In this document: positions 1-14,704 of the stretch, piece after piece
Position numbering within the stretch: position 1 is the first letter of the stretch
Layout of the letters: each line of letters starts with the position of its first letter
Source of the DNA: a virus
Taxonomy: Duplodnaviria; Heunggongvirae; Uroviricota; Caudoviricetes
Reading direction: 5' to 3' (one strand)
Virus record (IMG/VR): IMGVR_UViG_2636416110_000005
DNA length: 43,746 bases
The notes under the pieces: model-generated
Seen by the model: only the letters and a program-made list of their open reading frames with translations
The model's database searches: none
What the model was told of the DNA's origin: nothing
Position numbers and translations under genes: made by a program

Positions 1-19
1 CTATTTGATAAATATTAAA

Positions 20-1300
20 TTAATTTTTCATTGCTTCGTTATGGGGCATGGTTGGGGCAAACTCGCTTAACTGTGTATTTAACAAAGCTACCTGTGCATT
101 ATTGTTTTCAGACATCCATTTTCCGTATACCTGAAATACCATTTGCGCATCTGCATGGCCCATCTGGTTTGCTATAAATGCCGGGTTAGCACCAGCTGTC
201 AGCGACCAGCAGGCATAAGTATGTCTCGACTGATATGATTTTCGATGGCGGAGTCCGGCACGTTTTATCGCTGCGTCCCACATCTGCCTTATTGAGTCAA
301 CGGTAAAATGGTCACCATAATTTTTTACTCTCGCTGACACTTCAGGTTGAAAAACAAAGGTGCATTTTTGTTTTTCTGTTCTGCCATACTCTCTGAGGTG
401 AACATCAATGATATGCTCTTTGCTCAGTCTCGTTAATGTCATCTGACTCCGGAGAGCGTCGATTGCTGGCTTAATAAGATGAATGACCCGATTGGTTCCC
501 GCCTGTGTTTTTGGTACCGTGAAACGGTCTTTTGCTAAATTTCTCCTGATCATCATTGTTCCATTTTTCAGATCTATGTCCTCCCATCCAAGTGCACACA
601 GCTCACCAGGGCGAACTCCAGTATAAACAGAAACACACCATAAATTTTTTGCTTGCTGATTTCTGCACGCATCGATAAGACGGATAAATTCTTCCCGCGA
701 AAGAGGATCCGGAATGGTTCTTGATTCCTTTAATGGCGAGATCCCCTTAAACGGATTATCTGCCAGGTAACCGTTATCAACACCAAACTGGAACACGGCG
801 TTAAGATTTGTCATGTAATTATTTACAGTTACAGCCGATCTCCCTGGTTGTGTAACAATATAGTTACTTTTGGGGATCTGGTATCCAGTCAGTAACTCTT
901 TACGAACCTCCAGTAATTTTTCTTTATTAATCGATGAGGCAAGATTTTTTTCACCGATTATGCTCAGGATATTTTTGATGACGGCACGGTATGTGTTGAG
1001 TGATGTTTTGGCGACTTCAGTTTCTTTCAGTGCCAGAAATTTTTCAGCCAGTTCTTTTATGGTTAAATCTTGTCGGGCCTCACCAAATTTTTCCAGATTG
1101 CGTGAGGAGGGAAACTGTTTTGCATAGTCGAAAACACCAGTTTTTATTGCGTAACAAACAGAGGAGCGTAGTTCACCTGCAACGCGCCTGTTTTTTGCTG
1201 TGTCAGGAACCCCCAGATTTTCCCTGACTCTTACGTCTTTATAAACAAACCAGATACGTAATTTCCCTCCATGGTTTTCCACGCCTGTCGGATATTTCAT
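20..1300 (-). CDS. int: phage integrase, tyrosine recombinase (lambda family)
   Basis: ORF 20..1315 (431 aa); N-terminus MKYPTGVENHGGKLRIWF and C-terminal catalytic region typical of lambdoid integrases; followed by xis-like gene. Start probably ATG 1300 (MKYP, preceded by GAGAAG); 1315 is the alternative. Confidence 0.9.
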   Translation of the reverse strand: MKYPTGVENHGGKLRIWFVYKDVRVRENLGVPDTAKNRRVAGELRSSVCYAIKTGVFDYAKQFPSSRNLEKFGEARQDLTIKELAEKFLALKETEVAKTSLNTYRAVIKNILSIIGEKNLASSINKEKLLEVRKELLTGYQIPKSNYIVTQPGRSAVTVNNYMTNLNAVFQFGVDNGYLADNPFKGISPLKESRTIPDPLSREEFIRLIDACRNQQAKNLWCVSVYTGVRPGELCALGWEDIDLKNGTMMIRRNLAKDRFTVPKTQAGTNRVIHLIKPAIDALRSQMTLTRLSKEHIIDVHLREYGRTEKQKCTFVFQPEVSARVKNYGDHFTVDSIRQMWDAAIKRAGLRHRKSYQSRHTYACWSLTAGANPAFIANQMGHADAQMVFQVYGKWMSENNNAQVALLNTQLSEFAPTMPHNEAMKN

Positions 1301-1334
1301 TTCAACTTCTCTCATTAGTTAGTGTGGCTTTTAG

Positions 1335-1586
1335 TCAAGTAAGATGACGTCTTGGTCTCGCTGATGCCTGGCGCTCAATCCAGCGATCAATTTCTTCCAG
1401 GTTGTAAAAGCATGGACTGTTATCCCATGGCATACCGTCATGAGCGACATGCTTATATTCCCTTCCTTCCATAAACGATTTTTCCCGGGCCTTTTTTAAC
1501 GTACCTTTTTTTATTCCTTTCAGCGCAATTAACTGCTCTTCGGATACCCATTTGCCGGGAGAGACAATCATGATTACTTCGCTCAT
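1335..1586 (-). CDS. xis: excisionase-like protein
   Basis: 83-aa ORF immediately upstream of int on the same strand; size and position fit a prophage excisionase. Family assignment from position and memory, not a search. Confidence 0.55.
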   Translation of the reverse strand: MSEVIMIVSPGKWVSEEQLIALKGIKKGTLKKAREKSFMEGREYKHVAHDGMPWDNSPCFYNLEEIDRWIERQASARPRRHLT

Positions 1587-1658
1587 CGATTTCTTTATCT
1601 CTTACATCAGACGAGCGCCGGTTGCAGAATACCAGTCACAACCGGCGACAGTTGAACA

Positions 1659-4130
1659 TTAAGAATCAGCCTGACTCGGGATCAGTTTTTGCCAGATAAC
1701 TGAAACGTATTTTGCCTGGTAACGGGCGTCATCAAGTGCATTATGGCGCTCACCTTCGAATGGAATAGCCGTTCTGGCATCGAAGTCTATGGCTTTCCCC
1801 AGCTCAACGATTGTGCGTACATCGCGATCGTTGTAGTAACGCCACGGGCAGGGGATCCCCTGCCGTTCGTATGAACGGCGCAAAATCGTGTTGTCGAAGT
1901 TGGCTCCATTTCCCCAAACCTGAACAAAAAATTCACCGGAGTTTTCGTCGATAAATTCTCGCAATTGTAACAGTGCATCATCTAACGGGATTTCATCGGT
2001 CATAATGGCAGATTGCGCTTCGCGTGATTGCTTAAGCCACCATTTAATGGTGTCCCGATCAATGACTCCGCCAGCAGTTTCCAGATCGATAGTCTTACTA
2101 AATTCCGGTCCCATATCTCCGGTTTGCGGATCGAAAAATATTGCACCTATTGAGATGATCGGGGCATCAGGATTTTTTCCCATGGTTTCAAGGTCGATCA
2201 TTAGATGGTCACACGTCCTGCTGGTGGATGTGATTTCGTGATGACCGTTCACCTTAATTGGGTGATCTGCCGTCTCGCCAGTTTCATTATCGCTATTGTG
2301 ATGCTGATTGCCGCCAGTGTTCTCCTTGTGTGGATGTTCAGCGCCTTCCATTTCCTCCGGATCATCTTCCTGAACTTCAACCTGATACTCTTCATCGAAT
2401 GTTTCTTGGTATGTTGCGTCGCCCATCACCGCGCCACAATCAGGGCAGTTGCCGCCGCCGGTCTGACCGCAGGCGGTGCAGACTTTTTCCACTTCCTGTT
2501 GCGCTACTGGTTCAGGCTGTTTCGTTTCTGGCTCGTTTTGTAACGCATTTGGACTGTTTTGTTCCGCTTTTTGGTAGTTCCGTTCCGATTCATGCTGGTT
2601 CTGGTTCACAGAATCGCGGGTCTGGAGCCCCTTAACCCATTTCGGATCATTCGGGTCACTAATCCCTTCAACAAATTCACCACGTGATGCAGCAAGCAAC
2701 TTATCGGCGTCAGGCTGGCTGATATTGGCTGCCTGCATAATTTTGTTTACTTCGTCAGCGGTAACTTTTATCGGCTCTGGTTGTTCTGAATCTTCAGCGG
2801 TATCTACATTTTGCGGTAAGCCCGTGTATGTGCCATTTTTTCGGGCAAAATATTCTTCTTTTGTGATTTCAGTGGCGCCAGCAGCCAGTGCCTTATCCAG
2901 ACCAGAGAGTTTGTTTGCGCGACCGTATTTTTCTCCGTCCTTATCTGCGAAGAGGAAATAGAACGGCCCCTCACGCTCTACAGATGGTTCAGCTTCCGGC
3001 GCGGTTTCATTTTTTGGGATATCAGATACCTCAGTTTCCACTGCATCAGTTTGTGTTTCTGATGACTGGAGAACATCAACAGTGCCCAGGTCTGTTTCTT
3101 CATTCTCAAACACGCCCTTTGTCGTCAGGTATTCGCAGATATATTTGTTCAGTGCTACGGGATCTTTGTGAATGTCGATCGGACGCTCACGGACAAGGCC
3201 AAAAATAGTTTGGCGGTCGTAGCGAAGGGCATCAGGCTGTTTGCGCATTGATGCCGAGATACGCTTCCAGTCTTCGCGGTCGTTGTCGATAACTTCTTTT
3301 TTTGCCCAGCGATGGATGCTGCCGTCAATGTTTCCGGCATCCACATCACTAGGCCAGAGAGCGTAGGCCAGTTCGTCATCCAGTGTTTTCCATGTCTGCT
3401 TGTATTCGCGATGAATGGCAGCAATGACCGGGCTGATTTTTCCTGTTGAATTTTCAGTGTACTGTTGATTGGCTCTGGCGCGGGCGAGATCAACAACAGA
3501 CGTGTATTTTCCGGTTTCCTTGCGTTCACCTTCGCGACGTTTTTTCCAGATGCGCATCTCTGCCTGAATTTCGGGCCATTTAGCACCAGGAATACATTTA
3601 TGCTTAACCCACCCAATGGCGTGCAACTTAAGCTCCGGATACATGGCGTTAACTTCTGGCATTTTCATCAACGCTTCAACGATATGTCCGTCGAATGTTG
3701 CCATGTCTTCCTGCAACAATTCCTGTGCGCTAATAACCATATCAACGGTGATGTTTTCACATGTGTCGAACTTAACCATGACAGCGTTCTGTACTTCAGG
3801 GGCCAGCTTGTCAAAAGTGACGTTCATCGGATCGGATTCAGTCTCAACCGGGACAAAAGAAGCAGACTCCTCATCCCAGCGGTTTTCCTGCATATATTCA
3901 GCATCCCATGAATCGAGGGCAGGGCGGGGTATGCCAGGTTTATCCTCGCAGACAATAAATTTATAAGCGCAGTCCTGAGCAGCCGGATAATGTTCCAGGA
4001 ATTGCCAGTGAAATTTTGCTCGAGCACGGCGTTCGTCGCCAGCTTCAATGGCTGTGGCTACAGCCACAGCGCCTTCTTCCCTTGTTGCCAGTTCGTCAGG
4101 AATAGCGGCGCAAATAAAGACTTTACTCAT
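1659..4130 (-). CDS. large phage exonuclease with C-terminal DEDDh-type 3'-5' exonuclease domain (intact YdfE-like)
   Basis: ORF 1659..4166 (835 aa); C-terminal region has IDLETMG ... GNGANFDNTILRR ... HNALDDARYQ, resembling DnaQ-like DEDDh motifs. Occupies the slot of the truncated ydfE of K-12 Qin. Start likely ATG 4130 (MSKVF, GAGG 9 nt upstream); 4166 alternative. Confidence 0.8.
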   Translation of the reverse strand: MSKVFICAAIPDELATREEGAVAVATAIEAGDERRARAKFHWQFLEHYPAAQDCAYKFIVCEDKPGIPRPALDSWDAEYMQENRWDEESASFVPVETESDPMNVTFDKLAPEVQNAVMVKFDTCENITVDMVISAQELLQEDMATFDGHIVEALMKMPEVNAMYPELKLHAIGWVKHKCIPGAKWPEIQAEMRIWKKRREGERKETGKYTSVVDLARARANQQYTENSTGKISPVIAAIHREYKQTWKTLDDELAYALWPSDVDAGNIDGSIHRWAKKEVIDNDREDWKRISASMRKQPDALRYDRQTIFGLVRERPIDIHKDPVALNKYICEYLTTKGVFENEETDLGTVDVLQSSETQTDAVETEVSDIPKNETAPEAEPSVEREGPFYFLFADKDGEKYGRANKLSGLDKALAAGATEITKEEYFARKNGTYTGLPQNVDTAEDSEQPEPIKVTADEVNKIMQAANISQPDADKLLAASRGEFVEGISDPNDPKWVKGLQTRDSVNQNQHESERNYQKAEQNSPNALQNEPETKQPEPVAQQEVEKVCTACGQTGGGNCPDCGAVMGDATYQETFDEEYQVEVQEDDPEEMEGAEHPHKENTGGNQHHNSDNETGETADHPIKVNGHHEITSTSRTCDHLMIDLETMGKNPDAPIISIGAIFFDPQTGDMGPEFSKTIDLETAGGVIDRDTIKWWLKQSREAQSAIMTDEIPLDDALLQLREFIDENSGEFFVQVWGNGANFDNTILRRSYERQGIPCPWRYYNDRDVRTIVELGKAIDFDARTAIPFEGERHNALDDARYQAKYVSVIWQKLIPSQADS

Positions 4131-4222
4131 TTGTTTTAACCTCATGACAGATTTAAGGATGAACAAATCCCTGCCATTGCTGGCATATAAGAATGAAACC
4201 GGATATTTATTACGGAACTGTT

Positions 4223-4414
4223 TTAAAGACCTGCCGGGATTTCGATATTATCCTGGTGAATAACTTTATCGACCGGGTAACAGTTACCGGGAATTTTCTG
4301 TTCGGTTGCTGCAGTCATACACTCCTGCATTGTCCTGTGAACACTGACTGCAATATCAACTGGCTCTCCGGAAACAAGAAAAACTGTCAGAACAAGCACA
4401 AATGCTGAATTCAT
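4223..4414 (-). CDS. ydfD: YdfD-like small lysis protein
   Basis: 63-aa product MNSAFVLVLTVFLVSGEPVDIAVSVHRTMQECMTAATEQKIPGNCYPVDKVIHQDNIEIPAGL with N-terminal hydrophobic segment; matches remembered K-12 YdfD; start overlaps dicB stop by 4 nt. Confidence 0.8.
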   Translation of the reverse strand: MNSAFVLVLTVFLVSGEPVDIAVSVHRTMQECMTAATEQKIPGNCYPVDKVIHQDNIEIPAGL

Positions 4415-4599
4415 TGTGCACATCCTTTTGGCATCAGACGTAAACGAGCCAGCATTGAAACAATGCATATTTTATTTAATAGCTCCCGTTCTTGTTTTCT
4501 CTTGTTAATGGCATCTTCAGTAAATACTGGGTTACTGATAGTGACACCAATTTCAAAACAACCTTCAGACGTATTAACGTTTGGTAATAACGTTTTCAT
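4411..4599 (-). CDS. dicB: cell-division inhibitor DicB
   Basis: 62-aa product MKTLLPNVNTSEGCFEIGVTISNPVFTEDAINKRKQERELLNKICIVSMLARLRLMPKGCAQ, internal start of ORF 4411..4704; matches remembered K-12 DicB; lies downstream of DicF. Confidence 0.88.
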   Translation of the reverse strand: MKTLLPNVNTSEGCFEIGVTISNPVFTEDAINKRKQERELLNKICIVSMLARLRLMPKGCAQ

Positions 4600-4764
4600 T
4601 ATCGCGTCCTCAACAATGAATTTTGTGATGCAGTGCCTGGTGCCTCCAGGTGACGTTAACCAGTTAACAATTAACGCCGGATACAGAGAATCCACCCATA
4701 ACACTGTTTTTGGTTTTAACTGTTCCGCGTGCGCTCAGCCGCATTCACCACATCACAAAATTCA

Positions 4765-4812
4765 CTTTAAAAAGGGCGGCAGAGCAGTCACGGAGTAAAA
4801 CTGATACCGCCA
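4765..4812 (-). terminator. Rho-independent terminator forming the DicF 3' end
   Basis: GGCGG ... CCGCC stem within the DicF 3' half followed by TTTTT on the transcribed strand. Confidence 0.6.
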
Positions 4813-4826
4813 AACGTCACCAGAAA
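4774..4826 (-). ncRNA. dicF: DicF small RNA (53 nt)
   Basis: Reverse complement of 4774..4826 reads TTTCTGGTGACGTTTGGCGGTATCAGTTTTACTCCGTGACTGCTCTGCCGCCC, the remembered DicF sequence; followed on the minus strand by a T-run (4765..4773). Confidence 0.88.
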
Positions 4827-5166
4827 ATTGATAACAGAGGGCGTTGCAGCGGGGTTGTCACTTAAGCGTATGGTCAACCTGACAACCCGGTGTCCTCAAC
4901 GGGGAAGGAATAACCCCGCCATACTTACCGCCGCGCCATTTCGCGGGTTGCCACAACCGGAAGCGCACGGTCGACGAAAATTTAACGACAGGCTATCTAT
5001 GAACCAGCTACCTCGCCGTGCGCTTTCGCGTTATGGTCTGACTTTTCAGGGAAATATCCTTTCAGTAAACTGTCAGTTCCGGATGCGCACCCGTGTCCGG
5101 CGCACGCACTCCACCTCACCCGTGGAGAACTCCTTAATTACTAACCTTAGCTTTGTTGATTAGCTA

Positions 5167-5385
5167 CTAACGCGGGTATGTAATCATTCTGGCAATGCTT
5201 AATGCCGCTGCTTTTTCCAGATTGGTGATATCCTGCTCCAGAGCGGACAGATTTTCAGCCTGCTTAGCCCTGGCTTCATTAGCCCATTTCAGATCCTGCG
5301 CTGCATTAATTTTCTGGCGCATCCACTCATAAAGTTCATCATCGGTATAGTCTGGCGCGATGATGACGGGTTCTCGTTTCTGCAT
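5167..5385 (-). CDS. ydfC: YdfC-like protein, dicB operon
   Basis: 72-aa ORF MQKREPVIIAPDYTDDELYEWMRQKINAAQDLKW...; size and sequence match remembered K-12 YdfC; upstream of dicF on the same strand. Confidence 0.8.
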   Translation of the reverse strand: MQKREPVIIAPDYTDDELYEWMRQKINAAQDLKWANEARAKQAENLSALEQDITNLEKAAALSIARMITYPR

Positions 5386-5414
5386 ACTGATTCCTCGCGG
5401 TGCTGTTTCGCTTA

Positions 5415-5543
5415 TCAGCCGTTAGATTTTGCCGAACTGGAAAGCGCCTGTTTAAACTCACTGAAGCTGAGAGCTTCTTCGCCTTCGGCAAGGCCTTCGA
5501 AGTATTCTTCGTAAGCCTTTTCCATGATTGTGTCGAAATCCAT
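5415..5543 (-). CDS. ydfB: YdfB-like small protein (42 aa)
   Basis: Read by hand, below the ORF-track cutoff: MDFDTIMEKAYEEYFEGLAEGEEALSFSEFKQALSSSAKSNG; ATG 5543 lies 2 nt after the ydfA stop; the overlapping 69-aa ORF 5339..5548 is in another frame. Confidence 0.7.
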   Translation of the reverse strand: MDFDTIMEKAYEEYFEGLAEGEEALSFSEFKQALSSSAKSNG

Positions 5544-5544
5544 A

Positions 5545-5700
5545 TCACTCACCTGAGTTTCTTTCCAGCCAGCGACGGGCACCATTTTCGGTTTTAAACG
5601 TTTTGCTTTTGGTATACGTCATTGCGGTGAACGTGCCGTCCTGGTTTGGAAACACGCCGTACACCAGAGATTCGTTGTTGCCAAGATCGATAGTATCCAT
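5545..5700 (-). CDS. ydfA: YdfA-like protein (51 aa)
   Basis: Internal start of ORF 5545..5778: MDTIDLGNNESLVYGVFPNQDGTFTAMTYTKSKTFKTENGARRWLERNSGE; first gene of the leftward dicB operon. Confidence 0.75.
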   Translation of the reverse strand: MDTIDLGNNESLVYGVFPNQDGTFTAMTYTKSKTFKTENGARRWLERNSGE

Positions 5701-5780
5701 GCTGACCTCATTTCCCCTTAACGCTGGGGTAGCGGAACTGTTTGCTGAGAACACCGTGCGGTGTGTTGATGCAAACAAGA

Positions 5781-5795
5781 TTAGCCATGACTAAC
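5781..5795. promoter_or_regulatory. operator-like imperfect palindrome TTAGCCATGACTAAC in the dicA-ydfA spacer
   Basis: Near-repeat of the palindrome at 6326..6341; sits between dicA stop and ydfA start where a leftward early promoter/operator is expected. Confidence 0.4.
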
Positions 5796-5866
5796 ATATC
5801 GGTCAAGTGATTTTGTATGCTATAGCTAACATAATTGATGTGGTAAAAGATAACTCATTGATGATG

Positions 5867-6274
5867 TTATCTTTTATTTGTCCGCTGACGGGCTTTTAGT
5901 AATTCTTCAAAGAGTTTATTGAAGTTTTTTACTCGAGCTCGCATTTCGGCGAGCTGGGTATCCTGTTCTGATTCTGGCAGTGCATTAAACAGCTCAAGGA
6001 GCTCTAGTTCTTTGGGGGATAAGGCAACTGGCTTCTCAACAGGTGGTGTTGGTTGCTTGTCTTCATCGCCAAATAGAATCCATGTTGGTGAGCATTGCAA
6101 TACTTTGCTGAGGGCAAAAAGGTTCTTCCCTGTAGGTTCACTATCACCCCGTTCCCATTGTGATACAGACACATGGGAGATTTTCAGGGCTTTAGCAAGA
6201 GACCTTTGGGTGTGTTTGAGGTTTTTCCGACGATACCTGATGCGTTCGCCGATAGTTAAATTTTTTGTTTCCAT
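5867..6274 (-). CDS. dicA: HTH XRE-family repressor DicA (cI analogue)
   Basis: 135-aa ORF METKNLTIGERIRYRRKNLKHTQRSLAKALKISHVSVSQWERG...; matches remembered K-12 DicA; divergent from dicC. Confidence 0.9.
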   Translation of the reverse strand: METKNLTIGERIRYRRKNLKHTQRSLAKALKISHVSVSQWERGDSEPTGKNLFALSKVLQCSPTWILFGDEDKQPTPPVEKPVALSPKELELLELFNALPESEQDTQLAEMRARVKNFNKLFEELLKARQRTNKR

Positions 6275-6325
6275 AGTTAGCTAATGCTAAATCGTATTGA
6301 CTATGTTTTTGTTAACATCTATCTT

Positions 6326-6341
6326 GTTAGTTATGACTAAC
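6326..6341. promoter_or_regulatory. operator-like palindrome GTTAGTTATGACTAAC in the dicA/dicC divergent promoter region
   Basis: Inverted repeat GTTAGT..ACTAAC centred in the 83-bp dicA-dicC spacer; related GTTAGCTAATGC motif at about 6277; related copy at 5781. Confidence 0.45.
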
Positions 6342-6357
6342 AATAAAGGTGTTTTAA

Positions 6358-6588
6358 ATGCTTAAAACTGACGCTCTTTTGTATTTCGGTTCAAAAACAA
6401 AACTTGCACAAGCAGCAGGTATTCGTTTGGCTTCGCTTTATAGCTGGAAAGGGGATTTAGTTCCCGAAGGTCGCGCGATGCGTCTACAGGAGGCATCTGG
6501 CGGGGAGCTTCAGTATGATCCCAAAGTTTATGATGAATATCGTAAGACGAAGCGGGCGGGGCGGTTGAACAATGAAAATCACTCCTGA
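6358..6588 (+). CDS. dicC: Cro-like regulator DicC
   Basis: 76-aa ORF MLKTDALLYFGSKTKLAQAAGIRLASLYSWKGDLVPEGRAMRLQEASGGELQYD...; matches remembered K-12 DicC. Confidence 0.88.
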   Translation: MLKTDALLYFGSKTKLAQAAGIRLASLYSWKGDLVPEGRAMRLQEASGGELQYDPKVYDEYRKTKRAGRLNNENHS

Positions 6589-7093
6589 ACAGGCTCGTGA
6601 GGCTCTGGATGCCTGGATATGTCGACCAGGAATGACACAGGAGCAGGCGACGATATTAATCACTGAAGCATTCTGGGCTTTGAAAGAGCGCCCGAACATC
6701 GATGTTCAGCGTGTCACATATGAAGGTGGCGCGATTGATCAGCGAGCGCTTGGCGTTAATCGAGTGAAGATATTTGAACGCTGGAAGGCTATCGACACCA
6801 GGGATAAGCGTGAAAAGTTCACGGCGCTAGTGCCTGCAATTATGGAGGCTATCCGGATTAATGATTTCAGGTTGTATCGTGAAATTACTGACGGAAAAAG
6901 CATCACGTGCATGATCGCCGGGTTAAACAAAGAATATGGCGATGTGGTGGAGTCCGGACTGCTTTTTGCTGATCCTGCCGTAGTGGATCGTGAAACTGAC
7001 GAACTTATAGAAAAAGCAATTGCTTTCAAACTTGCGTATCGACAGCAATACCAACAAAAAGCTGGATGGAATTATGAGCCTTCTTTTTGCTGA
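6572..7093 (+). CDS. hypothetical early protein (cII/YdaT-like position)
   Basis: 173-aa ORF overlapping dicC stop, same strand; function not recognised. Confidence 0.55.
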   Translation: MKITPEQAREALDAWICRPGMTQEQATILITEAFWALKERPNIDVQRVTYEGGAIDQRALGVNRVKIFERWKAIDTRDKREKFTALVPAIMEAIRINDFRLYREITDGKSITCMIAGLNKEYGDVVESGLLFADPAVVDRETDELIEKAIAFKLAYRQQYQQKAGWNYEPSFC

Positions 7094-8039
7094 ACGCCCA
7101 CTGGTTATAAACACGCAGCTGGCAATGAAAATTGGCTTAAACGAAGCCATTGTTTTGCAACAACTGCACTACTGGTTGAGAGATACCAACTCCGGCATGG
7201 AATGTGATGGTGTTCGCTGGATTTATAACACAACGGAACAATGGCTGGAACAGTTCCCATTCTGGTCAGAGTCAACGTTAAAGCGCGCGTTTGCAAGTCT
7301 GAAAACGCTGGGGCTTTTGCGTTGTGAAAAGCTCAATAAATCAAAGCGCGATATGACCAATTTCTACACGATCAACTATGGGAGCGAGCTTTTAGATGGT
7401 GGCAAATTGAGCGAATCCATCGGTTCAAAATGCGCCGCTCCATCAGGTCAAAATGACACGATGGAAGAGGTCAAAATGAAACGCTCCATTGGTTCAAAAC
7501 GACCCAATGTCATCGGGTCAAAATGGCCTGATGATCTTACAGAGAATACAACAGAGATTACTACAGAGAATAAAAACACTTTTCGTCCGGAAGCTTCGCA
7601 ACCGGACCCGCAGACGACTGAACAGGATTTTTTAACCCGGAACTCCGACGCGGTTGTGTTTAGTGCGAAAAAACGCCAGTGGGGTAGCAGGGAGGATTTG
7701 GCGTGTGCGCAGTGGATCTGGGGGCGGATCGTGGGTCTCTACGAACAGGCAGCCAGTGATGATGGCGAGATCATGCGACCAAAAGAGCCTAACTGGACTG
7801 CCTGGGCCAATGACGTGCGCACAATGCGGATGCTGGATGGCAGAAGCCACAGACAAATTTGCGAAATGTTTGGTCGGGTTCAGCGAGATCCATTCTGGGT
7901 AAAAAACATCATGAGCCCGTCAAAGCTCCGCGAAAAATGGGACGAACTGGTCATCCGCCTGGGACGTTCACCTGTACAGCGTTGTGTTAATCATATTTCT
8001 GAACCGGATACAGAAATTCCGCCTGGTTTCAGAGGATAA
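7074..8039 (+). CDS. phage replication initiation protein (replisome-organizer-like)
   Basis: ORF 7020..8039; N-terminal LLFAERPLVINTQLAMKIGLNEAIVLQQLHYWL resembles replisome-organizer N-terminal HTH domains; start likely ATG 7074 (MSLLF) with GGATGG upstream; 7020 alternative. Confidence 0.7.
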   Translation: MSLLFAERPLVINTQLAMKIGLNEAIVLQQLHYWLRDTNSGMECDGVRWIYNTTEQWLEQFPFWSESTLKRAFASLKTLGLLRCEKLNKSKRDMTNFYTINYGSELLDGGKLSESIGSKCAAPSGQNDTMEEVKMKRSIGSKRPNVIGSKWPDDLTENTTEITTENKNTFRPEASQPDPQTTEQDFLTRNSDAVVFSAKKRQWGSREDLACAQWIWGRIVGLYEQAASDDGEIMRPKEPNWTAWANDVRTMRMLDGRSHRQICEMFGRVQRDPFWVKNIMSPSKLREKWDELVIRLGRSPVQRCVNHISEPDTEIPPGFRG

Positions 8040-8079
8040 GTGTTGATTTCAGGTCATGAGGTAATTTTAAGGGGGACTT

Positions 8080-8502
8080 GTGGCAAAAGTTTTTACACAA
8101 GAAGAGCGGGAAAAAATTAAATGGCAGGTGGTGGAACTCGTGCGCCAGAGCGGCCGTGAGACGTTACGGCAACTGGAAGCTAAAACAGGTGCGACTAGAT
8201 ATCTGATGAGCGTTCTTGCCAGAGAGCTGGTAGCCAGTGGCGATGTATACAACTCCGGCTACGGGTTATTCCCCTCTGAACAGGCGCGTAAGGACTGGCA
8301 AAACGCCCGCAAAAAACTCTCGAGGGCAAAGGTGAAGAAACCTGCTGTGGTTGATCCGGACCTTATCTGGTCATCACCTGACGGAGAAATACGTCGCTAC
8401 GACAGTCGCCTAAACATAATCTGTCGCGAGTGCCGGAAGAGCGAAGTTATGCAGCGCATACTGGCTTTCTATCAGGGTAATTTTCAGGACGTGGCGCAGT
8501 GA
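8080..8502 (+). CDS. hypothetical protein with N-terminal winged-helix-like segment
   Basis: 140-aa ORF with RBS GGGGGA upstream; stop TGA overlaps GTG start of the next ORF (GTGA), indicating translational coupling. Confidence 0.6.
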   Translation: MAKVFTQEEREKIKWQVVELVRQSGRETLRQLEAKTGATRYLMSVLARELVASGDVYNSGYGLFPSEQARKDWQNARKKLSRAKVKKPAVVDPDLIWSSPDGEIRRYDSRLNIICRECRKSEVMQRILAFYQGNFQDVAQ

Positions 8503-8945
8503 GTGCACCGGCAACCATTCTTGATATGTGCTGTGGCAGCCGCATGTTCTGGTTCGATAAGTCTGACGAACGGGCGATATTCAGCGATATCAGAAAAGAA
8601 GGATACACATTACGCAATGGGAGACGCTTGATTATCAGCCCTGACATTATCGCAGATTTTCGTGCATTATCATTTGCAGACGCATCTTTTTCGATGGTTG
8701 TATTAGACCCTCCGCATCTTGAGAGTGTTGGTGATAACGCCTGGATGGGAAAGAAATATGGACGGCTGAATAAAGATGCCTGGCGTGATGATTCGCGACA
8801 GAGATTTAAAGAAGCCTTTCGGGTGTTGAGGCCGCACGGCGTTCTGATTTTTTAATGGAATGAAACGCAAATACCGGTAAGCCAGATTCTGGCACTGACA
8901 GACAGAAAACCTGTTATCTGTCAACGAACAGGGAAAAAACGATAA
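8499..8945 (+). pseudogene. SAM-dependent (DNA) methyltransferase-like gene interrupted by in-frame TAA
   Basis: ILDMCCGSRMF (motif I-like) and MVVLDPPH (DPPY/DPPH-like motif IV) in ORF 8499..8855; TAA at 8853..8855 is followed in frame by 29 more sense codons (WNETQIPVSQILALTDRKPVICQRTGKKR) to TAA 8943..8945. Confidence 0.55.
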
Positions 8946-9117
8946 AACCCACTGGATTATTTTTATGAAAGAGGCATCCAGTGAGTAGATTCGTAAGGCT
9001 ACAGATACGTATATCTGAATAATTAAATTCAGTTCTGTAAATAAAATTTAATCCTTAACCGGATGGATTTCTGCACCCTCAGAACATCAGGAGGCCGCCC
9101 GAAAGGGCGGTAGTGAA

Positions 9118-9228
9118 ATGCGAAAGTTCAAAATTATTATTGAAACGGGAATAGCTGGTGGAGATTTTGAGGATGTATTCGAAGTGGACGATGACGCAAC
9201 ACCTGAGGAAATTCATGACGGAGCATAA
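9118..9228 (+). CDS. small acidic hypothetical protein (36 aa)
   Basis: MRKFKIIIETGIAGGDFEDVFEVDDDATPEEIHDGA read by hand; AGGAGG at 9089..9094 is separated from the ATG by a GCCGCCC-GAAA-GGGCGG hairpin. Confidence 0.3.
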   Translation: MRKFKIIIETGIAGGDFEDVFEVDDDATPEEIHDGA

Positions 9229-9277
9229 GAAATTTTCTTTAACTACTGCAATTACTCATACCACGAAATAAAAGACG

Positions 9278-9469
9278 ATGAGGAAGAACAAAGTGGCTGA
9301 TTTTTGTTCAGCTAAATATAACATCAGTTTTGAAGAGCGGGATGAACTATTAATGGACTATGGTGAGTTACGCGGTGGAAGTGCTGCTGATGTCGAATCC
9401 TAGCGTGATGACTATGAAGCGGGAAAAACTCCGGTCGAAGCATATTGTGATGAGTGGGGCGATGAATGA
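9278..9469 (+). pseudogene. small ORF with in-frame TAG (41 codons, TAG 9401..9403, 21 codons)
   Basis: MRKNKVADFCSAKYNISFEERDELLMDYGELRGGSAADVES*RDDYEAGKTPVEAYCDEWGDE; its TGA overlaps the ATG of the next ORF. Confidence 0.3.
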
Positions 9470-9753
9470 GCGAGATTAATTATCAGGAAGGGCATGAAAC
9501 GGCGGGGCAAGCAAAACCAGTGGCATGGCGATATCGCTACGTGAAAAAAGGCGTTACGGACTTTCAGGGGAAGTAGTGGTCTGGTGACTGGAAATATGTA
9601 CCGAAAAAAGAGGATTGTAACGACAGGCCGAACTATCAAATTCAGGCCTTATTCACTGCCTCACCAGTCCCAGTTACATCAGAAGAACTGGTTAAAGCTG
9701 TGCACTTTTATGAACAACTAAAACGCGAAAATCCACCAACATCCGGCAACTAG
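9466..9753 (+). pseudogene. small ORF with in-frame TAG (36 codons, TAG 9574..9576, 58 codons)
   Basis: MSEINYQEGHETAGQAKPVAWRYRYVKKGVTDFQGK*WSGDWKYVPKKEDCNDRPNYQIQALFTASPVPVTSEELVKAVHFYEQLKRENPPTSGN; start overlaps preceding ORF stop (ATGA). Confidence 0.3.
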
Positions 9754-10008
9754 ATTAATGGATTAACTATGTCGGTTAAACGACCAGCCAACTGAAAAAG
9801 CGGAAACCTGATTACAGGTTGCCAGATAAGGCAATGAGCTACCTGGCGCGGAACGGACTGATAAGTATGGGGAATGTTTTACGATGAACCTTTAGACTAA
9901 AGAGTTTGTAACGCTATGTAAGTGATTTTTTCTGGTTTAGATATTTATATGTCCGGCCAAATTGAGGTGTGTTTAAATGTAATTGCACATTGATTGTAGG
10001 AGGAATAA

Positions 10009-10187
10009 TGAAAAACGCATTGCAGTTTTTGTTTGTTGCGTTCTGGTTGTTCGCATCATGTATGCCCATCATCTTCACAGCAAGGTATATGGAAAAAGTT
10101 GATGTTTTGATATTAATATTTGGATATATAAATGCCCTTTTTTTAGGGGTGTTCATGGCGGTCATGTGCATTGAATACTGGCGGTAA
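10009..10187 (+). CDS. small hydrophobic (two predicted TM) protein, 59 aa
   Basis: MKNALQFLFVAFWLFASCMPIIFTARYMEKVDVLILIFGYINALFLGVFMAVMCIEYWR; strong SD AGGAGG 6 nt upstream of ATG 10009; AT-rich upstream region. Confidence 0.5.
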
Positions 10188-10459
10188 ATACAGCGAACTC
10201 CATTGGTTTAGTTGGATATTTACTGTGCTGGACAAAAACGGTTTGCGGGGAAATCTTAGTTAAGTAGAATGACTGCGGGTGCTTGAGGCTATCTGCCTCG
10301 GGCATGGACACCAACGGCAGATAGAGAAAAGCCCCAGTTAACATTACGCGTCCTGCAAGACGCTTAACATTAATCTGAGGCCAATTTCATGCTAGACACA
10401 TGTAGGTTAGCCTCTTACGTGCCGAAAGGCACGGAGAAGCAGGCTATTGTTAACACCAA

Positions 10460-12080
10460 GCTGTAATGTCCCCTTTGAACCATTCTAAAATGTCCCCAGA
10501 CAATTCTCTGGGGGATTTTTCATGATCAAAGAGACTGTTACGATGAGTCATAAGGAACTCCACCGACTTCAGATTATTCAGGAACAAGCTGCGGCACGCA
10601 TTGGCATTTCTATTCGGCAGGTTAAACGTCTGGTGCAACGGTATAGAAATGAAGGGCCTTCTGGTCTGGTTTCCCACCGACGTGGAAAGCGTCCTAATAA
10701 TTCCTTTTCTACTGAATTCAGAGCAACAGTAATTTCACTCCTCAAAGGCCGTTACGCTGATTTTGGACCTACGTTTGCGTGCGAAAAATTGCGCGAGATA
10801 CACGGTTTATCTTTATCCGTTGAAACTCTCAGAAAGTGGATGATAGAAGAGGGGTTATGGCGTGAACGCCGTCGTAAAATTGCCCGTATATATCAACGCC
10901 GCATGCGACGACCATCTTACGGTGAACTGATCCAGATTGATGGCTCACCTCATGACTGGTTTGAAAATCGAGGCCCCAGATGTACACTGATCGTTTTCAT
11001 TGATGATGCCACCAGTGCGTTGATGGCGTTGCGTTTTGTGCCTGCTGAAACAACCCGGGCTTACATGGAAACCCTCCGGGGTTACCTTAATGATCATGGC
11101 GTACCGCTCGCTCTCTACTCTGATAGACACAGTATATTCAGGGTAAATAACCCAGAGCGGGAAGGTGAGCTGACCCAGTTCACTCGTGCGATAAAGACAC
11201 TGGGCATCGAGCCAATCCATGCCAACAGCCCGCAGGCAAAAGGGCGGGTAGAGCGCGCCAATCAGACACTACAGGACAGGCTGGTCAAAGAAATGCGGCT
11301 TCAGAATATCAGTGATATTGAAACAGCAAATGCATGGTTGCCGACCTTTATTGAAGCCTATAACAACCGGTTCGCTACGTCGCCTCGTACTACTGATAAT
11401 GCTCATCTTGATGTGCACCATTCTGAAGAGGAACTGGGTTATATCTTCAGCCTACAGGCGAAGCGCGTTCTGTCTAAAAATCTCACTTTCCAGTACAAAA
11501 GCAGTGCGTTTCAGGTACGCAGTGAGGGCCGGGGATATCGACTTAGGCATTCGGTTGTTACTGTATGCGAGAACTTTGACGGTGAAATTAACGTTCTGTA
11601 TGACGGGAAAGCGCTGGGCTGGGAAAAGTATGTTGATGGCCCGGAGCCTATACCACTGGATGATGAAAAGAGTGTCCATGAACGAGTGGATAATGCCCGT
11701 ATTGATTTACGCTCAAAATACTATGTTAAACCTAAAGCTGACCATCCCTGGCTTACGCGCCGAACGCAAAGTCATCAGCAAGTTAAGCCCCCGAAGTTAC
11801 CTAAAAAGAAGCCTGATCCCGATAAAAAAGATTGAAACCAAGATCGATTCGGTTGAGTGCATATCCATTCATAGGGTAGATTCTTAAGTCGCGTTTCTGG
11901 TGTTCATTTTCGGGTGGTTTGTTACTTGTTTTACCGGGGATATGCCAGAAACGCGCTGAGTCAGTCTGGGCGGTGCGCGTAATGAGGCGTTATGGTAAAT
12001 AGCCTATGCTAATGTCCGCTAAGAGCAAGAAGCGGAAGTTGGCAGTTTTGTGGACTGTCCCCACAAAAGTGACTACAGAA
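10460..12080 (+). mobile_element. ISNCY-like insertion sequence (boundaries approximate)
   Basis: Transposase ORF flanked by repeated TGTCCCC-containing motifs (10465..10473, 10488..10496, about 12048..12056); terminal inverted repeats could not be defined by eye. Confidence 0.35.
10522..11835 (+). CDS. DDE transposase, ISNCY-like family
   Basis: 437-aa ORF with N-terminal HTH-like segment and integrase-core-like region (IDGSPHDWF ... DDATS ... lysine-rich C-terminus); family from memory, not a search. Confidence 0.75.
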   Translation: MIKETVTMSHKELHRLQIIQEQAAARIGISIRQVKRLVQRYRNEGPSGLVSHRRGKRPNNSFSTEFRATVISLLKGRYADFGPTFACEKLREIHGLSLSVETLRKWMIEEGLWRERRRKIARIYQRRMRRPSYGELIQIDGSPHDWFENRGPRCTLIVFIDDATSALMALRFVPAETTRAYMETLRGYLNDHGVPLALYSDRHSIFRVNNPEREGELTQFTRAIKTLGIEPIHANSPQAKGRVERANQTLQDRLVKEMRLQNISDIETANAWLPTFIEAYNNRFATSPRTTDNAHLDVHHSEEELGYIFSLQAKRVLSKNLTFQYKSSAFQVRSEGRGYRLRHSVVTVCENFDGEINVLYDGKALGWEKYVDGPEPIPLDDEKSVHERVDNARIDLRSKYYVKPKADHPWLTRRTQSHQQVKPPKLPKKKPDPDKKD

Positions 12081-12271
12081 ATAGTTGCAATTCATAATTG
12101 ATCATGGGTTGTCAGTTAAACTCGTGGCGATTTAAATAGACTAATTGGGAGTGCGTCCATTACTTATATCTTGTAATGTTAACTATCAGAAATGATACAA
12201 AGATAATATGTCTTTAAAGAAAAGGCTGATGGCGAAAAGTGGCCCGATGAGGGCCACAATACGGCTGTCAC

Positions 12272-12604
12272 TTAGACGTAAATATCAATGGTGCCAGCGG
12301 TATTTGTATCGTCTTTTTTCTCTTCTTTTTTATCAGGCTGAACTGTCGCGTCTTCATTCTTTTTCTCTGCCTGCTGCCTTAACAACTGCTCCAGTTGAGC
12401 CCAGAGGCTTTCAATTTGCTTCTGTACCAATGCAGCCATTTCTTTTTTCTGCTGTGTCGTCATCCCCTCTTCCGATGAGATTTTCCCAAGCTTTTCAGTC
12501 AGCACCTGAATTTGTCTTGTGATTTTGGCTATTTCTGATGTTCCTTCCGGGGCGGAGTTGTTTGAAATAACGGTTGAGGTATTTCCCTGAATTGTGACAG
12601 ACAT
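12272..12604 (-). CDS. flxA: FlxA-like protein
   Basis: 110-aa ORF MSVTIQGNTSTVISNNSAPEGTSEIAKITRQIQVLTEKLGK...; matches remembered K-12 FlxA; AGGAG RBS. Confidence 0.85.
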   Translation of the reverse strand: MSVTIQGNTSTVISNNSAPEGTSEIAKITRQIQVLTEKLGKISSEEGMTTQQKKEMAALVQKQIESLWAQLEQLLRQQAEKKNEDATVQPDKKEEKKDDTNTAGTIDIYV

Positions 12605-12627
12605 AGATTTCTCCTTTTAAAAAAGCA

Positions 12628-12654
12628 CTATCGGCATGCACAAAAAAATCTTTA
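12628..12654 (-). promoter_or_regulatory. sigma-28 (FliA) type promoter upstream of flxA
   Basis: On the minus strand TAAAGATT-N11-GCCGATAG about 25 nt upstream of the flxA ATG; consensus is TAAAGTTT-N11-GCCGATAA. Confidence 0.7.
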
Positions 12655-12806
12655 ATCGTATTTCTTGTGTCATTAATTGTTTGATGTTCAGATTGTTTTC
12701 CTCGCGGGCTGGCGCGCCTCAGAAAGTAAAGCTTGTTGACAGGGGTAAACGTTCGGCAATAATTTTCTGCCGCATGCGGGTGTTGCATAAAACGTGTTAC
12801 GTTCCT

Positions 12807-13112
12807 TTATCGACAGGTCAGGTCACCGCTCACCCGCCGACGAGAAAGCAACACTGACATGCTAAAGCAAAAAATAGATGAATAAGTTGAGTTGTGCATA
12901 TGTAGCCTGACCGTCACAAAGTATATGGTGTCTGTACCAGTAAGATGATGGCCGGACTCTTTAAAAACGAGCTGACCTGCACAATACAGGATGGACTTAG
13001 CAATGGCTGCTCCTGGCACAAAGCGGACAGTGATCACCGTTCTTACGACTACTTTCTGACTTCCTTCGTGACTTGCCCTAAGCATGTTGTAGTGCGATAC
13101 TTGTAATGACAT
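12807..13112 (-). CDS. ydfV: YdfV-like hypothetical protein
   Basis: 101-aa ORF, same length and position as K-12 ydfV; putative start codon lies inside the relO repeats, so coding status is uncertain. Confidence 0.35.
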   Translation of the reverse strand: MSLQVSHYNMLRASHEGSQKVVVRTVITVRFVPGAAIAKSILYCAGQLVFKESGHHLTGTDTIYFVTVRLHMHNSTYSSIFCFSMSVLLSRRRVSGDLTCR

Positions 13113-13124
13113 TTGTAATTACAA
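13101..13124 (+). promoter_or_regulatory. relBE operator (relO-like repeats)
   Basis: Tandem TTGTAATGACAT / TTGTAATTACAA just upstream of relB RBS AGAGG. Confidence 0.7.
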
Positions 13125-13136
13125 GAGGTGTAAGAC

Positions 13137-13376
13137 ATGGGTAGCATTAACCTGCGTATTGACGATGAACTTAAAGCGCGTTCTTACGCCGCGCTTGAAA
13201 AAATGGGTGTAACTCCTTCTGAAGCGCTTCGTCTCATGCTCGAGTATATCGCTGACAATGAACGCTTGCCGTTCAAACAGACACTCCTGAGTGATGAAGA
13301 TGCTGAACTTGTGGAGATAGTGAAAGAACGGCTTCGTAATCCTAAGCCAGTACGTGTGACGCTGGATGAACTCTGA
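13137..13376 (+). CDS. relB: RelB antitoxin
   Basis: 79-aa ORF MGSINLRIDDELKARSYAALEKMGVTPSEALRLMLEYIADNERLPF...; matches remembered RelB. Confidence 0.9.
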   Translation: MGSINLRIDDELKARSYAALEKMGVTPSEALRLMLEYIADNERLPFKQTLLSDEDAELVEIVKERLRNPKPVRVTLDEL

Positions 13377-13663
13377 TGGCGTATTTTCTGGATTTTGACG
13401 AGCGGGCACTAAAGGAATGGCGAAAGCTGGGCTCGACGGTACGTGAACAGTTGAAAAAGAAGCTGGTTGAAGTACTTGAGTCACCCCGGATTGAAGCAAA
13501 CAAGCTCCGTGGTATGCCTGATTGTTACAAGATTAAGCTCCGGTCTTCAGGCTATCGCCTTGTATACCAGGTTATAGACGAGAAAGTTGTCGTTTTCGTG
13601 ATTTCTGTTGGGAAAAGAGAACGCTCGGAAGTATATAGCGAGGCGGTCAAACGCATTCTCTGA
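13376..13663 (+). CDS. relE: RelE mRNA interferase toxin
   Basis: 95-aa ORF MAYFLDFDERALKEWRKLGSTVREQLKKKLVEVLESPRIEANKLRGMPDCYKIKLRSSGYRLVYQ...; start overlaps relB stop. Confidence 0.9.
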   Translation: MAYFLDFDERALKEWRKLGSTVREQLKKKLVEVLESPRIEANKLRGMPDCYKIKLRSSGYRLVYQVIDEKVVVFVISVGKRERSEVYSEAVKRIL

Positions 13664-13734
13664 ACCAAAGCATGACATCTCTGTTTCGCACCGAAGGTGA
13701 CACTTCTGCTTTGCGTTGACAGGAGAAGCAGGCT

Positions 13735-14703: not shown

Positions 14704-14704
14704 C

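What the first reader, a model, noticed from the sequence alone, without database searches (positions are those of the whole stretch)
20..6600. Intact version of the Qin/dicBF early region, which is degraded in the K-12 reference
The leftward arm carries complete int, xis-like, an 823-aa exonuclease, ydfD, dicB, DicF, ydfC, ydfB, ydfA and the dicA/dicC switch, with tight gene overlaps. In K-12 Qin, as I remember it, the integrase is a pseudogene and ydfE is truncated by an IS. This copy would therefore show the ancestral state of the DicB/DicF/YdfD killing module and its exonuclease.
Basis: partly seen in the sequence, partly recalled or inferred. Interest (0 to 1): 0.5.

Follow-up and report, generated by a model that had tools for sequence, protein, structure and literature searches.

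The report
Undeleted Qin prophage early-left arm
This is the complete integrase-to-repressor arm of the same lambda-like prophage that survives as the crippled "Qin" remnant in E. coli K-12. It is real, but it is ordinary: thousands of sequenced E. coli genomes and several isolated, plaque-forming phages already carry it.

Summary
Window 20-6600 carries open int (426 aa), xis (83 aa), an 823-aa exonuclease, ydfD, dicB, DicF (Rfam 76.7 bits), ydfC, ydfB, ydfA, dicA and dicC.

The shared DNA is 99.9% identical to K-12 Qin. K-12 lacks window 1180-3363 and has a 706-bp IS2 remnant in its place. That 2,184-bp loss removes the first 40 codons of int, all of xis, and exonuclease codons 256-823.

ydfA to ydfD, DicF and the dicA/dicC switch are not degraded in K-12. 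They differ from this copy at only two silent or non-coding bases. So only exo-xis-int is "restored" here.

None of this is new:
- The int'-xis-exo segment is at least 80% covered in 3,532 of 5,426 complete E. coli genomes.
- The K-12 junction occurs in 342 genomes, and every listed one is a laboratory K-12 derivative.
- GenBank phage PhiR42_1 matches window 1-6600 at 99.97%. It holds an attP junction and both K-12 Qin ends.
- Phage Tritos matches the arm at 99.0% (window 1-5738) and is published as virion-producing and plaque-forming.

One side observation: the exonuclease combines a RecE-like non-catalytic middle region with a DexA-like DEDDh 3'-5' nuclease domain. It is not RecE.

The parts
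20..1300 (-). Tyrosine integrase, 426 aa. It has an arm-binding N-terminal domain and a catalytic domain. K-12 intQ' lacks codons 1-40.
   Evidence: Pfam Arm-DNA-bind_2 E=3.8e-22 and Phage_integrase E=4e-18. Alignment to PDB 6emy with motif positions located shows R230, R359, H382 and Y392. The K-12 match stops at window 1179. One residue differs from K-12, L302F.
1335..1586 (-). Excisionase, 83 aa. It is entirely absent from K-12 Qin.
   Evidence: PF06806 E=1.6e-31. PGAP names it 'excisionase family protein'. It lies inside the K-12 deletion of window 1180-3363.
1659..4130 (-). Exonuclease, 823 aa. Residues 1-255 equal K-12 YdfE'. Residues about 262-627 are a RecE-like non-catalytic region with a CxxC...CxxC zinc-ribbon-like motif at 551-566. 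Residues 642-813 are a DEDDh (DexA/Rv2179c-like) 3'-5' exonuclease domain.
   Evidence: PF16473 226.5 bits. PHROG 2082 matched 1-822 of 823. BLASTP to Rac RecE residues 278-592, E=2e-61. PDB 8kel alignment. Motif residues D646, E648, D746, H796 and D801 located. The NCBIfam RecE equivalog cut-off is not reached, 281.6 against 1269.
4223..4414 (-). ydfD, the 63-aa lysis protein.
   Evidence: PF07358 E=7.7e-26. PGAP names it 'lysis protein YdfD'. Identical to K-12.
4411..4599 (-). dicB, the 62-aa cell-division inhibitor.
   Evidence: PF05358 E=9.6e-40. NF049927 132.8 bits against a cut-off of 100. Identical to K-12.
4774..4826 (-). DicF small RNA with its terminator hairpin.
   Evidence: RF00039 76.7 bits against a gathering score of 48, E=5e-16. 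It maps onto K-12 dicF b1574 with no mismatch.
4827..5166 (-). Untranslated DicF precursor leader between ydfC and DicF. It carries one base difference from K-12, at window 5018.
   Evidence: Sequence read. Mismatch list. Processing of the polycistronic transcript is described in bioRxiv 10.1101/2023.04.14.536235.
5167..5700 (-). ydfC (5167-5385), ydfB (5415-5543) and ydfA (5545-5700), the first genes of the dicBp operon.
   Evidence: PGAP annotation. ydfA matches PF07151 E=5e-28. PHROGs 1744, 2061 and 751. Identical to K-12.
5775..5835 (-). dicBp promoter region. TTGACC, a 17-nt spacer, then TAATCT, with the operator TGTTAGTCATGGCTAA (5781-5796) overlapping the spacer and -10 element. A second operator-like site lies at 5816-5832.
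   Evidence: Sequence read. Repeat families D1, D2 and I4 are shared with the dicA/dicC intergenic region. The promoter assignment is read from the sequence and is an inference.
5867..6274 (-). dicA, a 135-aa HTH repressor (P22 C2 / lambda CI analogue) with no peptidase domain.
   Evidence: PF01381 E=1.3e-16. NF007257 234 bits against a cut-off of 101. One synonymous difference from K-12 at window 6107.
6275..6357 (.). Divergent dicA/dicC control region with the palindromic operator TGTTAGTCATAACTAACA (6325-6342) and related half-sites.
   Evidence: D1, I3, I4.
6358..6588 (+). dicC, the 76-aa Cro analogue.
   Evidence: PF14549 P22_Cro 44.1 bits against a cut-off of 30.2. NF007282 159.5 bits against a cut-off of 130.

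Best explanation
Window 20-6600 is the immunity switch plus the early-left (lambda pL-equivalent) operon of a Qin/PhiR42_1-type lambdoid temperate phage, in the state before the K-12 lineage damaged it.

What this analysis shows from sequence:
- All eleven genes and the DicF RNA are intact.
- The DNA is 99.9% identical to K-12 Qin.
- K-12 differs by an IS2 insertion at int codon 40/41, followed by a deletion running from inside IS2 to exonuclease codon 256. This removes 2,184 bp of phage DNA and leaves 706 bp of IS2.

What the literature establishes:
- DicA represses dicBp.
- Transcription from dicBp runs through ydfA-ydfB-ydfC.
- RNase E/III processing and an intrinsic terminator release the 53-nt DicF, which blocks ftsZ translation.
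- Read-through transcripts give DicB, which acts through MinC to block division and also blocks ManYZ-dependent phage entry.
- Read-through also gives YdfD, a lysis protein that inhibits IspG.

What I infer:
- In the undeleted form the same leftward transcript continues through the 823-aa exonuclease, xis and int, as lambda pL continues through exo-xis-int. No strong intrinsic terminator lies in between.
- Derepression would therefore couple transient division arrest with DNA-end processing and excision.
- Losing xis, the Int arm-binding domain and the nuclease domain is what grounded Qin in K-12, while leaving the toxic module under DicA control.
For: - Identity and breakpoints against MG1655.
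- Gene integrity and domains.
- Same chromosomal site: rspB flanks the 100%-identical copy in SCU-316.
- PhiR42_1 (PV340562.1) matches window 1-6600 at 99.97%. It is a circularly permuted record whose attP junction shares the core TGAATT(T)ATGGATTTC with K-12 attL and attR, and it also carries K-12 Qin's other end, stf-tfa-pinQ-ydfK-ynfT.
- Tritos has the same arm at 98.96% with genes at almost the same offsets, shifted by at most 1 nt. It is published as spontaneously induced, virion-forming and plaque-forming on MG1655 hsdR- (PMC9928086).
- Prevalence: 3,532 of 5,426 genomes carry at least 80% of int'-xis-exo, against 342 with the K-12 junction.
- Shared operators at dicBp and in the dicA/dicC intergenic region.
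- Regulation and processing: PMC5069750 and bioRxiv 10.1101/2023.04.14.536235.
Against: - Co-transcription of exo-xis-int with dicBF is not shown. The DicF terminator sits in the middle of the operon, and the cited Northern blots did not detect the long species.
- No N-like antiterminator was identified.
- DicA (135 aa) has no S24 peptidase domain, so the induction route is unknown.
- The prophage in this particular window may not be viable. An IS21-family element replaces the last codons of J and the 5' part of lom, and the window ends inside that element.
- No activity of the exonuclease, Xis or Int of this copy has been tested.
Confidence: 0.93

Rival explanations
1. The early arm is open, but the element in this window is itself a grounded, non-viable prophage. 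'Intact' would then apply only to coordinates 20-6600 and not to a working phage.
For: An IS21-family element (istA 41669-42985, istB 42997-43746) abuts J at window 41367/41368. The last 19 nt of J and the 5' part of lom are missing relative to strain G6/7, and the window stops at the istB stop codon. A truncated ISNCY transposase gene and two pseudogenes lie at about window 9100-11600.
Against: The ISNCY remnant and pseudogene region are also present in PhiR42_1 (window 1-33965 matches at 99.0%), which is deposited as a complete phage genome. lom is a non-essential accessory gene in lambda (from background knowledge, not tested here). This rival does not contradict the identity of the early arm.
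Confidence: 0.45
2. It is a different lambdoid prophage that merely shares the mobile dicBF module with Qin by mosaic exchange. It would then say nothing about the ancestry of K-12 Qin.
For: dicBF modules do occur in several unrelated prophage contexts, such as O157 CP-933 M/O/P (PMC5069750). In Tritos and mEp460_ev081 the arm is joined to different immunity or replication regions.
Against: Identity to K-12 Qin is 99.9% over three collinear blocks totalling about 16.2 kb. These reach far outside dicBF, to relBE-hokD-ydfU-ydfT-csp-lysis-nohA. The chromosomal flank and att core are the same. The deletion junctions are clean, with an IS2 end on one and GGAGsCTA microhomology on another.
Confidence: 0.03
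3. The K-12 arrangement is the older one, and the full-length exo-xis-int in this copy was acquired later by recombination with another prophage.
For: Lambdoid prophages recombine frequently. The exonuclease shares an 86%-identical DNA stretch with recE (H98 and H99).
Against: The K-12 gap is filled by a truncated IS2 whose intact terminal repeat abuts int. That is the signature of an insertion followed by an adjacent deletion. K-12 ydfE' and intQ' are in-register fragments of the full genes. The K-12 junction was seen only in laboratory K-12 derivatives.
Confidence: 0.02

Closest known systems
Cryptic prophage Qin of E. coli K-12 MG1655 (b1544-b1579)
   Same: Same att site, same gene order, and 99.9% nucleotide identity over window 1-1179, 3364-6851 and 11651-23171. 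dicA, dicC, ydfABC, DicF, dicB and ydfD are identical or differ only silently.
   Different: K-12 lacks window 1180-3363 and has an IS2E remnant there. It also lacks about 6852-11650 (replication region) and everything beyond 23171 up to the side tail fibre gene. As a result it has no xis, no nuclease domain, an N-terminally truncated Int and no morphogenesis genes.
Escherichia phage PhiR42_1 (PV340562.1) and phages Tritos (OV696610.1) and mEp460_ev081 (LR597641.1)
   Same: All three have the int-xis-823-aa exonuclease-ydfD-dicB-DicF arm. Gene lengths are identical and offsets are almost the same, shifted by at most 1 nt. Identity over the arm is 99.97%, 98.96% and 94.7%. Tritos is experimentally active.
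   Different: Tritos and mEp460_ev081 carry other immunity and/or replication modules. The late region of PhiR42_1 is 95-99% identical to the window and has no IS21 element in lom.
Lambda pL operon (N-...-kil-gam-bet-exo-xis-int) and the P22 immC region
   Same: A repressor/Cro switch with shared operators. A leftward early operon that carries a host division inhibitor (Kil in lambda, DicB and DicF here), a nuclease, and then xis and int next to att.
   Different: No N homologue and no Bet, RecT or Erf annealase were found. The division block uses a small RNA and a MinC-dependent peptide rather than Kil. The repressor has no LexA-like cleavage domain. The nuclease is a DEDDh 3'-5' type, not a lambda Exo-type 5'-3' enzyme.
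Rac prophage early-left arm (kilR-racC-recE-recT-ralR-xisR-intR)
   Same: Equivalent position and layout. ydaF is the ydfA paralogue (DUF1391). The middle of the exonuclease (residues 262-627) is homologous to RecE 278-592, including the zinc-ribbon-like motif.
   Different: The RecE PD-(D/E)XK 5'-3' catalytic domain is replaced here by a DexA-like DEDDh domain. There is no RecT partner.

Membership tests
Qin prophage lineage (K-12 Qin / PhiR42_1 type) | Near-identical DNA, collinear with K-12 Qin beyond the mobile dicBF module | tested here: met
   99.9% identity over three blocks totalling about 16.2 kb.
Qin prophage lineage (K-12 Qin / PhiR42_1 type) | Integration at the ydfJ / rspB-side att site | tested here: inconclusive
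   The window starts 16 bp inside the prophage, so it has no flank of its own. The 100%-identical copy in SCU-316 lies next to rspB. The PhiR42_1 attP shares its core with K-12 attL and attR.
DicF RNA (Rfam RF00039) | Covariance-model score above the gathering threshold, full-length match | tested here: met
   76.7 bits against 48, model positions 1-52 of 52. Identical to K-12 dicF.
DicB cell-division inhibitor (PF05358 / NF049927) | Full-length profile match above the curated cut-off | tested here: met
   134.6 bits against 27. 132.8 bits against 100.
Lambda-type tyrosine integrase with arm-binding domain | Arm-binding domain plus catalytic domain with the Arg...Arg...His...Tyr residues | tested here: met
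   PF12167 and PF00589 are above their cut-offs. R230, R359, H382 and Y392 are present, and the variable His-II position is Tyr. Activity was not tested.
RecE / exodeoxyribonuclease VIII (the name used in several phage records) | RecE equivalog score and the C-terminal PD-(D/E)XK 5'-3' nuclease domain | tested here: not met
   NF007259 scores 281.6 bits against a cut-off of 1269 and covers only profile positions 271-600 of 877. BLASTP similarity stops at RecE residue 592.
DEDDh 3'-5' exonuclease, Rv2179c/DexA-like (PF16473) | Domain match above the cut-off with the DxE, D and Hx4D motifs | tested here: met
   226.5 bits against 27. Aligns to PDB 8kel. D646, E648, D746, H796 and D801 located. 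Substrate and polarity cannot be tested here.
Lambdoid CI/Cro-type immunity switch (P22 immC-like) | Divergent HTH repressor and Cro genes, with repeated operators that also occur at the leftward early promoter | tested here: met
   HTH_3 and P22_Cro matches. NF007257 and NF007282. Operator family TGTTAGTCATrrCTAA at window 5781-5796 and 6325-6342.
SOS-cleavable (LexA/CI S24) repressor | C-terminal S24 peptidase domain | tested here: not met
   DicA is 135 aa, and Pfam finds only HTH families in it.

The most novel reading that the evidence does not exclude
The 823-aa protein, of which K-12 keeps only the YdfE' stub, may be a distinct and uncharacterised phage enzyme. It joins a RecE-type N-terminal/zinc-ribbon module to a DexA-like 3'-5' DEDDh nuclease and has no annealase partner. 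From memory, and not checked here, the N-terminal module in full-length RecE is reported to promote linear-linear recombination. The shared module could then be a portable targeting or scaffolding unit that delivers nucleases of opposite polarity to the same substrate or partner. In that case the DicB/DicF arm of live Qin-type phages would include a DNA-end-processing or anti-defence function that K-12 work has never seen.
Probability: 0.2. Interest if true: 0.35.

Novelty: already known. Interest (0 to 1): 0.08.

Why it matters
It matters little as a discovery. It confirms that the K-12 reference shows a mutilated version of a very common phage arm. It also gives exact breakpoints: IS2 at int codon 40/41 with a 2,184-bp adjacent deletion, a 4.8-kb microhomology deletion, and a roughly 21-kb late-gene deletion.

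The practical value is for work on DicB, DicF and YdfD. Their natural context is a live temperate phage, and PhiR42_1 and Tritos are available for such experiments. K-12 YdfE is the first 255 residues of an 823-aa nuclease that is often mislabelled RecE/exonuclease VIII.

Tried and rejected
- I considered that the arm might be a different prophage sharing only the dicBF mosaic module. I rejected this because 99.9% collinear identity extends to nohA.
- I considered 'exodeoxyribonuclease VIII' as the identity of the 823-aa protein. I rejected this because the equivalog cut-off is not reached and the RecE catalytic domain is absent.
- Literature searches for 'PhiR42' and for 'ydfE + Qin + exonuclease' found nothing.
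- The Brenes & Laub 2025 paper appears, from the matching phage-name pattern, to be the source of the PhiR phage panel. It is cited in PMC13190303, but it is not held. How PhiR42_1 was isolated therefore rests on the GenBank record (host ECOR13, attP-containing permutation), not on a paper I could read.
- The simple terminator scan did not pick up the known DicF terminator because its loop is too long. The scan gave only weak minus-strand sites between dicB and int, so it neither supports nor excludes read-through.
- I did not run the large protein-database searches or a structure prediction. Annotated genomes, PHROGs and phage records already answered the full-length question.
Full report

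Yes. ORF listing and translation checks show uninterrupted reading frames, each with a single terminal stop. Coordinates follow the PGAP annotation of a 100%-identical genome, SCU-316.

| Feature | Window coordinates | Size |
|---|---|---|
| int | 20-1300 (-) | 426 aa |
| xis | 1335-1586 (-) | 83 aa |
| exonuclease | 1659-4130 (-) | 823 aa from the ATG |
| ydfD | 4223-4414 (-) | 63 aa |
| dicB | 4411-4599 (-) | 62 aa |
| DicF | 4774-4826 (-) | 53 nt |
| ydfC | 5167-5385 (-) | 72 aa |
| ydfB | 5415-5543 (-) | 42 aa |
| ydfA | 5545-5700 (-) | 51 aa |
| dicA | 5867-6274 (-) | 135 aa |
| dicC | 6358-6588 (+) | 76 aa |

- Rfam finds DicF at 4774-4825(-) with 76.7 bits against a gathering score of 48.
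- Pfam and NCBIfam confirm Int (Arm-DNA-bind_2 plus Phage_integrase), excisionase (PF06806), DicB, YdfD (DUF1482), YdfA (DUF1391), DicA and DicC.
- 'Tight overlaps' holds for dicB/ydfD (4 bp), ydfA/ydfB (1-nt gap) and dicC/next gene (17 bp). It does not hold for int/xis, xis/exo or exo/ydfD, which are 34, 72 and 92 nt apart.

**2. Relation to K-12 Qin**

MG1655 annotates ydfE, insD7 and intQ as pseudogenes around IS2E, next to rspB. BLAST of the window against that region gives three collinear blocks:

| Window | K-12 equivalent | Differences |
|---|---|---|
| 1-1179 | intQ' | 1 mismatch |
| 3364-6851 | ydfE' through ydfX | 2 mismatches |
| 11651-23171 | ydfW through nohA | 99.97% identity |

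Reading the junctions shows the following:

- The intact right terminal repeat of IS2 abuts window 1179, and internal IS2 sequence abuts window 3364. This is an IS2 insertion in int followed by an adjacent deletion. It removed half of IS2 and 2,184 bp of phage DNA.
- K-12 therefore lost Int codons 1-40, which is most of the arm-binding domain. It also lost all of xis and exonuclease codons 256-823, which include the whole nuclease domain.
- The only base differences in the shared early region are window 397 (Int L302F), window 5018 (non-coding DicF precursor) and window 6107 (synonymous in dicA).
- So the dicA/dicC switch and the ydfABC-DicF-dicB-ydfD module are not degraded in K-12. This copy adds information only for exo-xis-int.

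- About window 6852-11650, with imperfect GGAGsCTA microhomology at the junction.
- Everything beyond window 23171, where K-12 joins nohA' to stfQ.

**3. Is the exonuclease full length, and what is it?**

- It matches PHROG 2082 ('exonuclease') over positions 1-822 of 823.
- The gene is 2,472 nt in phages PhiR42_1, Tritos and mEp460_ev081.
- The C-terminus (residues 642-813) is a DEDDh Rv2179c/DexA-like 3'-5' exonuclease domain. PF16473 scores 226.5 bits, and it aligns to PDB 8kel.
- The motif residues D646, E648, D746, H796 and D801 are all present.
- Residues 262-627 are homologous to Rac RecE residues 278-592, with E=2e-61 and roughly 80% identity over residues 470-625. This stretch includes a CxxC...CxxC motif at 551-566.
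- The similarity stops before RecE's catalytic domain, and the RecE equivalog cut-off is far from reached, 281.6 against 1269 bits. The label 'exodeoxyribonuclease VIII' in several records is therefore a misnomer.
- None of the annotations of this element lists an annealase such as RecT, Bet or Erf.

**4. How it most likely works**

- The dicA/dicC region has a palindromic operator, TGTTAGTCATAACTAACA, at 6325-6342.
- A close copy, TGTTAGTCATGGCTAA, lies at 5781-5796. It overlaps the spacer and -10 element of a TTGACC-17-TAATCT promoter upstream of ydfA. This fits the published finding that DicA represses dicBp.
- Published work shows that the transcript starts upstream of ydfA. DicF is released by RNase processing and termination, and DicF and DicB inhibit division.
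- I infer that in the undeleted form, read-through continues into the exonuclease, xis and int, by analogy with lambda pL. The consensus scan found only weak terminator-like sites on that strand between dicB and int.
- This co-transcription step is not demonstrated.
- DicA lacks a peptidase domain, so the induction signal is unknown.

**5. Is it new?**

No.

- Window 1-8000 is at least 80% covered in 1,302 of 5,426 complete E. coli genomes.
- The int'-xis-exo segment (window 1100-4200) is at least 80% covered in 3,532 genomes.
- The K-12 ydfE-IS2E-intQ junction occurs in 342 genomes, and every listed one is a laboratory K-12 derivative.
- GenBank phage PhiR42_1 (PV340562.1, 48,668 bp, host ECOR13) matches window 1-6600 at 99.97% and window 1-33965 at 99.0%.
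- The PhiR42_1 record is permuted around an attP junction. Its core, TGAATT(T)ATGGATTTC, is shared with K-12 attL and attR. It also contains K-12 Qin's other end, stf-tfa-pinQ-ydfK-ynfT.
- K-12 Qin is thus a PhiR42_1-like genome minus three deletions.
- Phage Tritos has the arm at 98.96% with genes at almost the same offsets, shifted by at most 1 nt, and DicF is annotated in its record. Tritos is published as spontaneously induced, imaged as a siphovirus, and plaque-forming on MG1655 hsdR- (PMC9928086).
- mEp460_ev081 has the arm at 94.7%.
- Conservation of dicBF in Qin-like prophages, and the wide size range of Qin at this site (11-97 kb, in 48% of 638 strains), are already in the literature (PMC5069750; PMC6379469).

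**6. Caveats on this copy**

- The window starts 16 bp inside the prophage and ends at the stop codon of an IS21-family istB gene.
- That IS abuts J at window 41367/41368. The last 19 nt of J and the 5' part of lom are missing relative to strain G6/7.
- The late half of this particular prophage may therefore be damaged. Its attR side could not be examined.

**7. Verdict**

Novelty is nil. The only mildly interesting residue is the uncharacterised chimeric nuclease: a RecE-like module joined to a DexA-like domain.

Noticed in passing
window 1659-4130 (-), especially residues 262-627 and 642-813: The 823-aa 'exonuclease' is a domain chimera. A RecE-like non-catalytic middle region carries a CxxC...CxxC motif and is about 80% identical to Rac RecE over residues 470-625. 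It is fused to a DexA/Rv2179c-like DEDDh 3'-5' nuclease in place of RecE's 5'-3' domain, and there is no annealase gene nearby. Several phage records mislabel it exodeoxyribonuclease VIII.
   Followed up: partly
window about 6852-11650: A 4.8-kb segment is deleted in K-12 Qin, with imperfect microhomology (GGAGGCTA / GGAGCCTA) at the junction. It holds the C-terminal part of the YdaT-family/CII-like gene, an O-like replication gene, a DUF977 gene, a SAM methyltransferase, two pseudogenes and a truncated ISNCY transposase gene. That transposase gene ends about 85 bp before the right breakpoint.
   Followed up: partly
window 23171/23172: This is the third K-12 breakpoint. K-12 joins nohA' directly to stfQ and lacks the whole head and tail region. 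PhiR42_1 shows that the missing span is about 21 kb (L006 24217-45352).
   Followed up: partly
window 41368-43746: An IS21-family element (ISEc12-like; istA 41669-42985, istB 42997-43746) abuts the J gene. The J ORF (37973-41446) loses its last 6 codons and reads into the junction. The 5' part of lom is missing, and the window ends exactly at the istB stop. This looks like a contig or segment boundary at a repeat.
   Followed up: partly
window 33965-40470: The late region diverges from PhiR42_1 and from the best complete-genome matches. Identity is about 95.6%, with an unaligned gap at 33965-34177 in the tape-measure gene. The early half is 99.9% identical, so the late genes are a mosaic. No complete RefSeq E. 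coli genome matches the late half better than about 97%.
   Followed up: no
window 5867-6274 (-): DicA is only 135 aa and has no LexA/CI-type S24 peptidase domain. Induction of Qin-type phages with this immunity region is therefore unlikely to use RecA-stimulated self-cleavage. The trigger is unknown to me.
   Followed up: no
window 11651-23171: This block is rich in accessory host-affecting ('moron') genes and is 99.97% identical to K-12. It holds flxA, ydfV, relBE, hokD, rem, ydfU, Q-like ydfT, cspF, cspB, the lysis cassette, cspI, gnsB, ydfO and nohA. These genes are therefore part of the complete phage, not later additions to the K-12 remnant.
   Followed up: partly
window 5018: A single base differs from K-12 (G here, A in K-12, on the + strand) inside the 341-nt untranslated DicF precursor. 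Any effect on RNase III/E processing is unknown.
   Followed up: no
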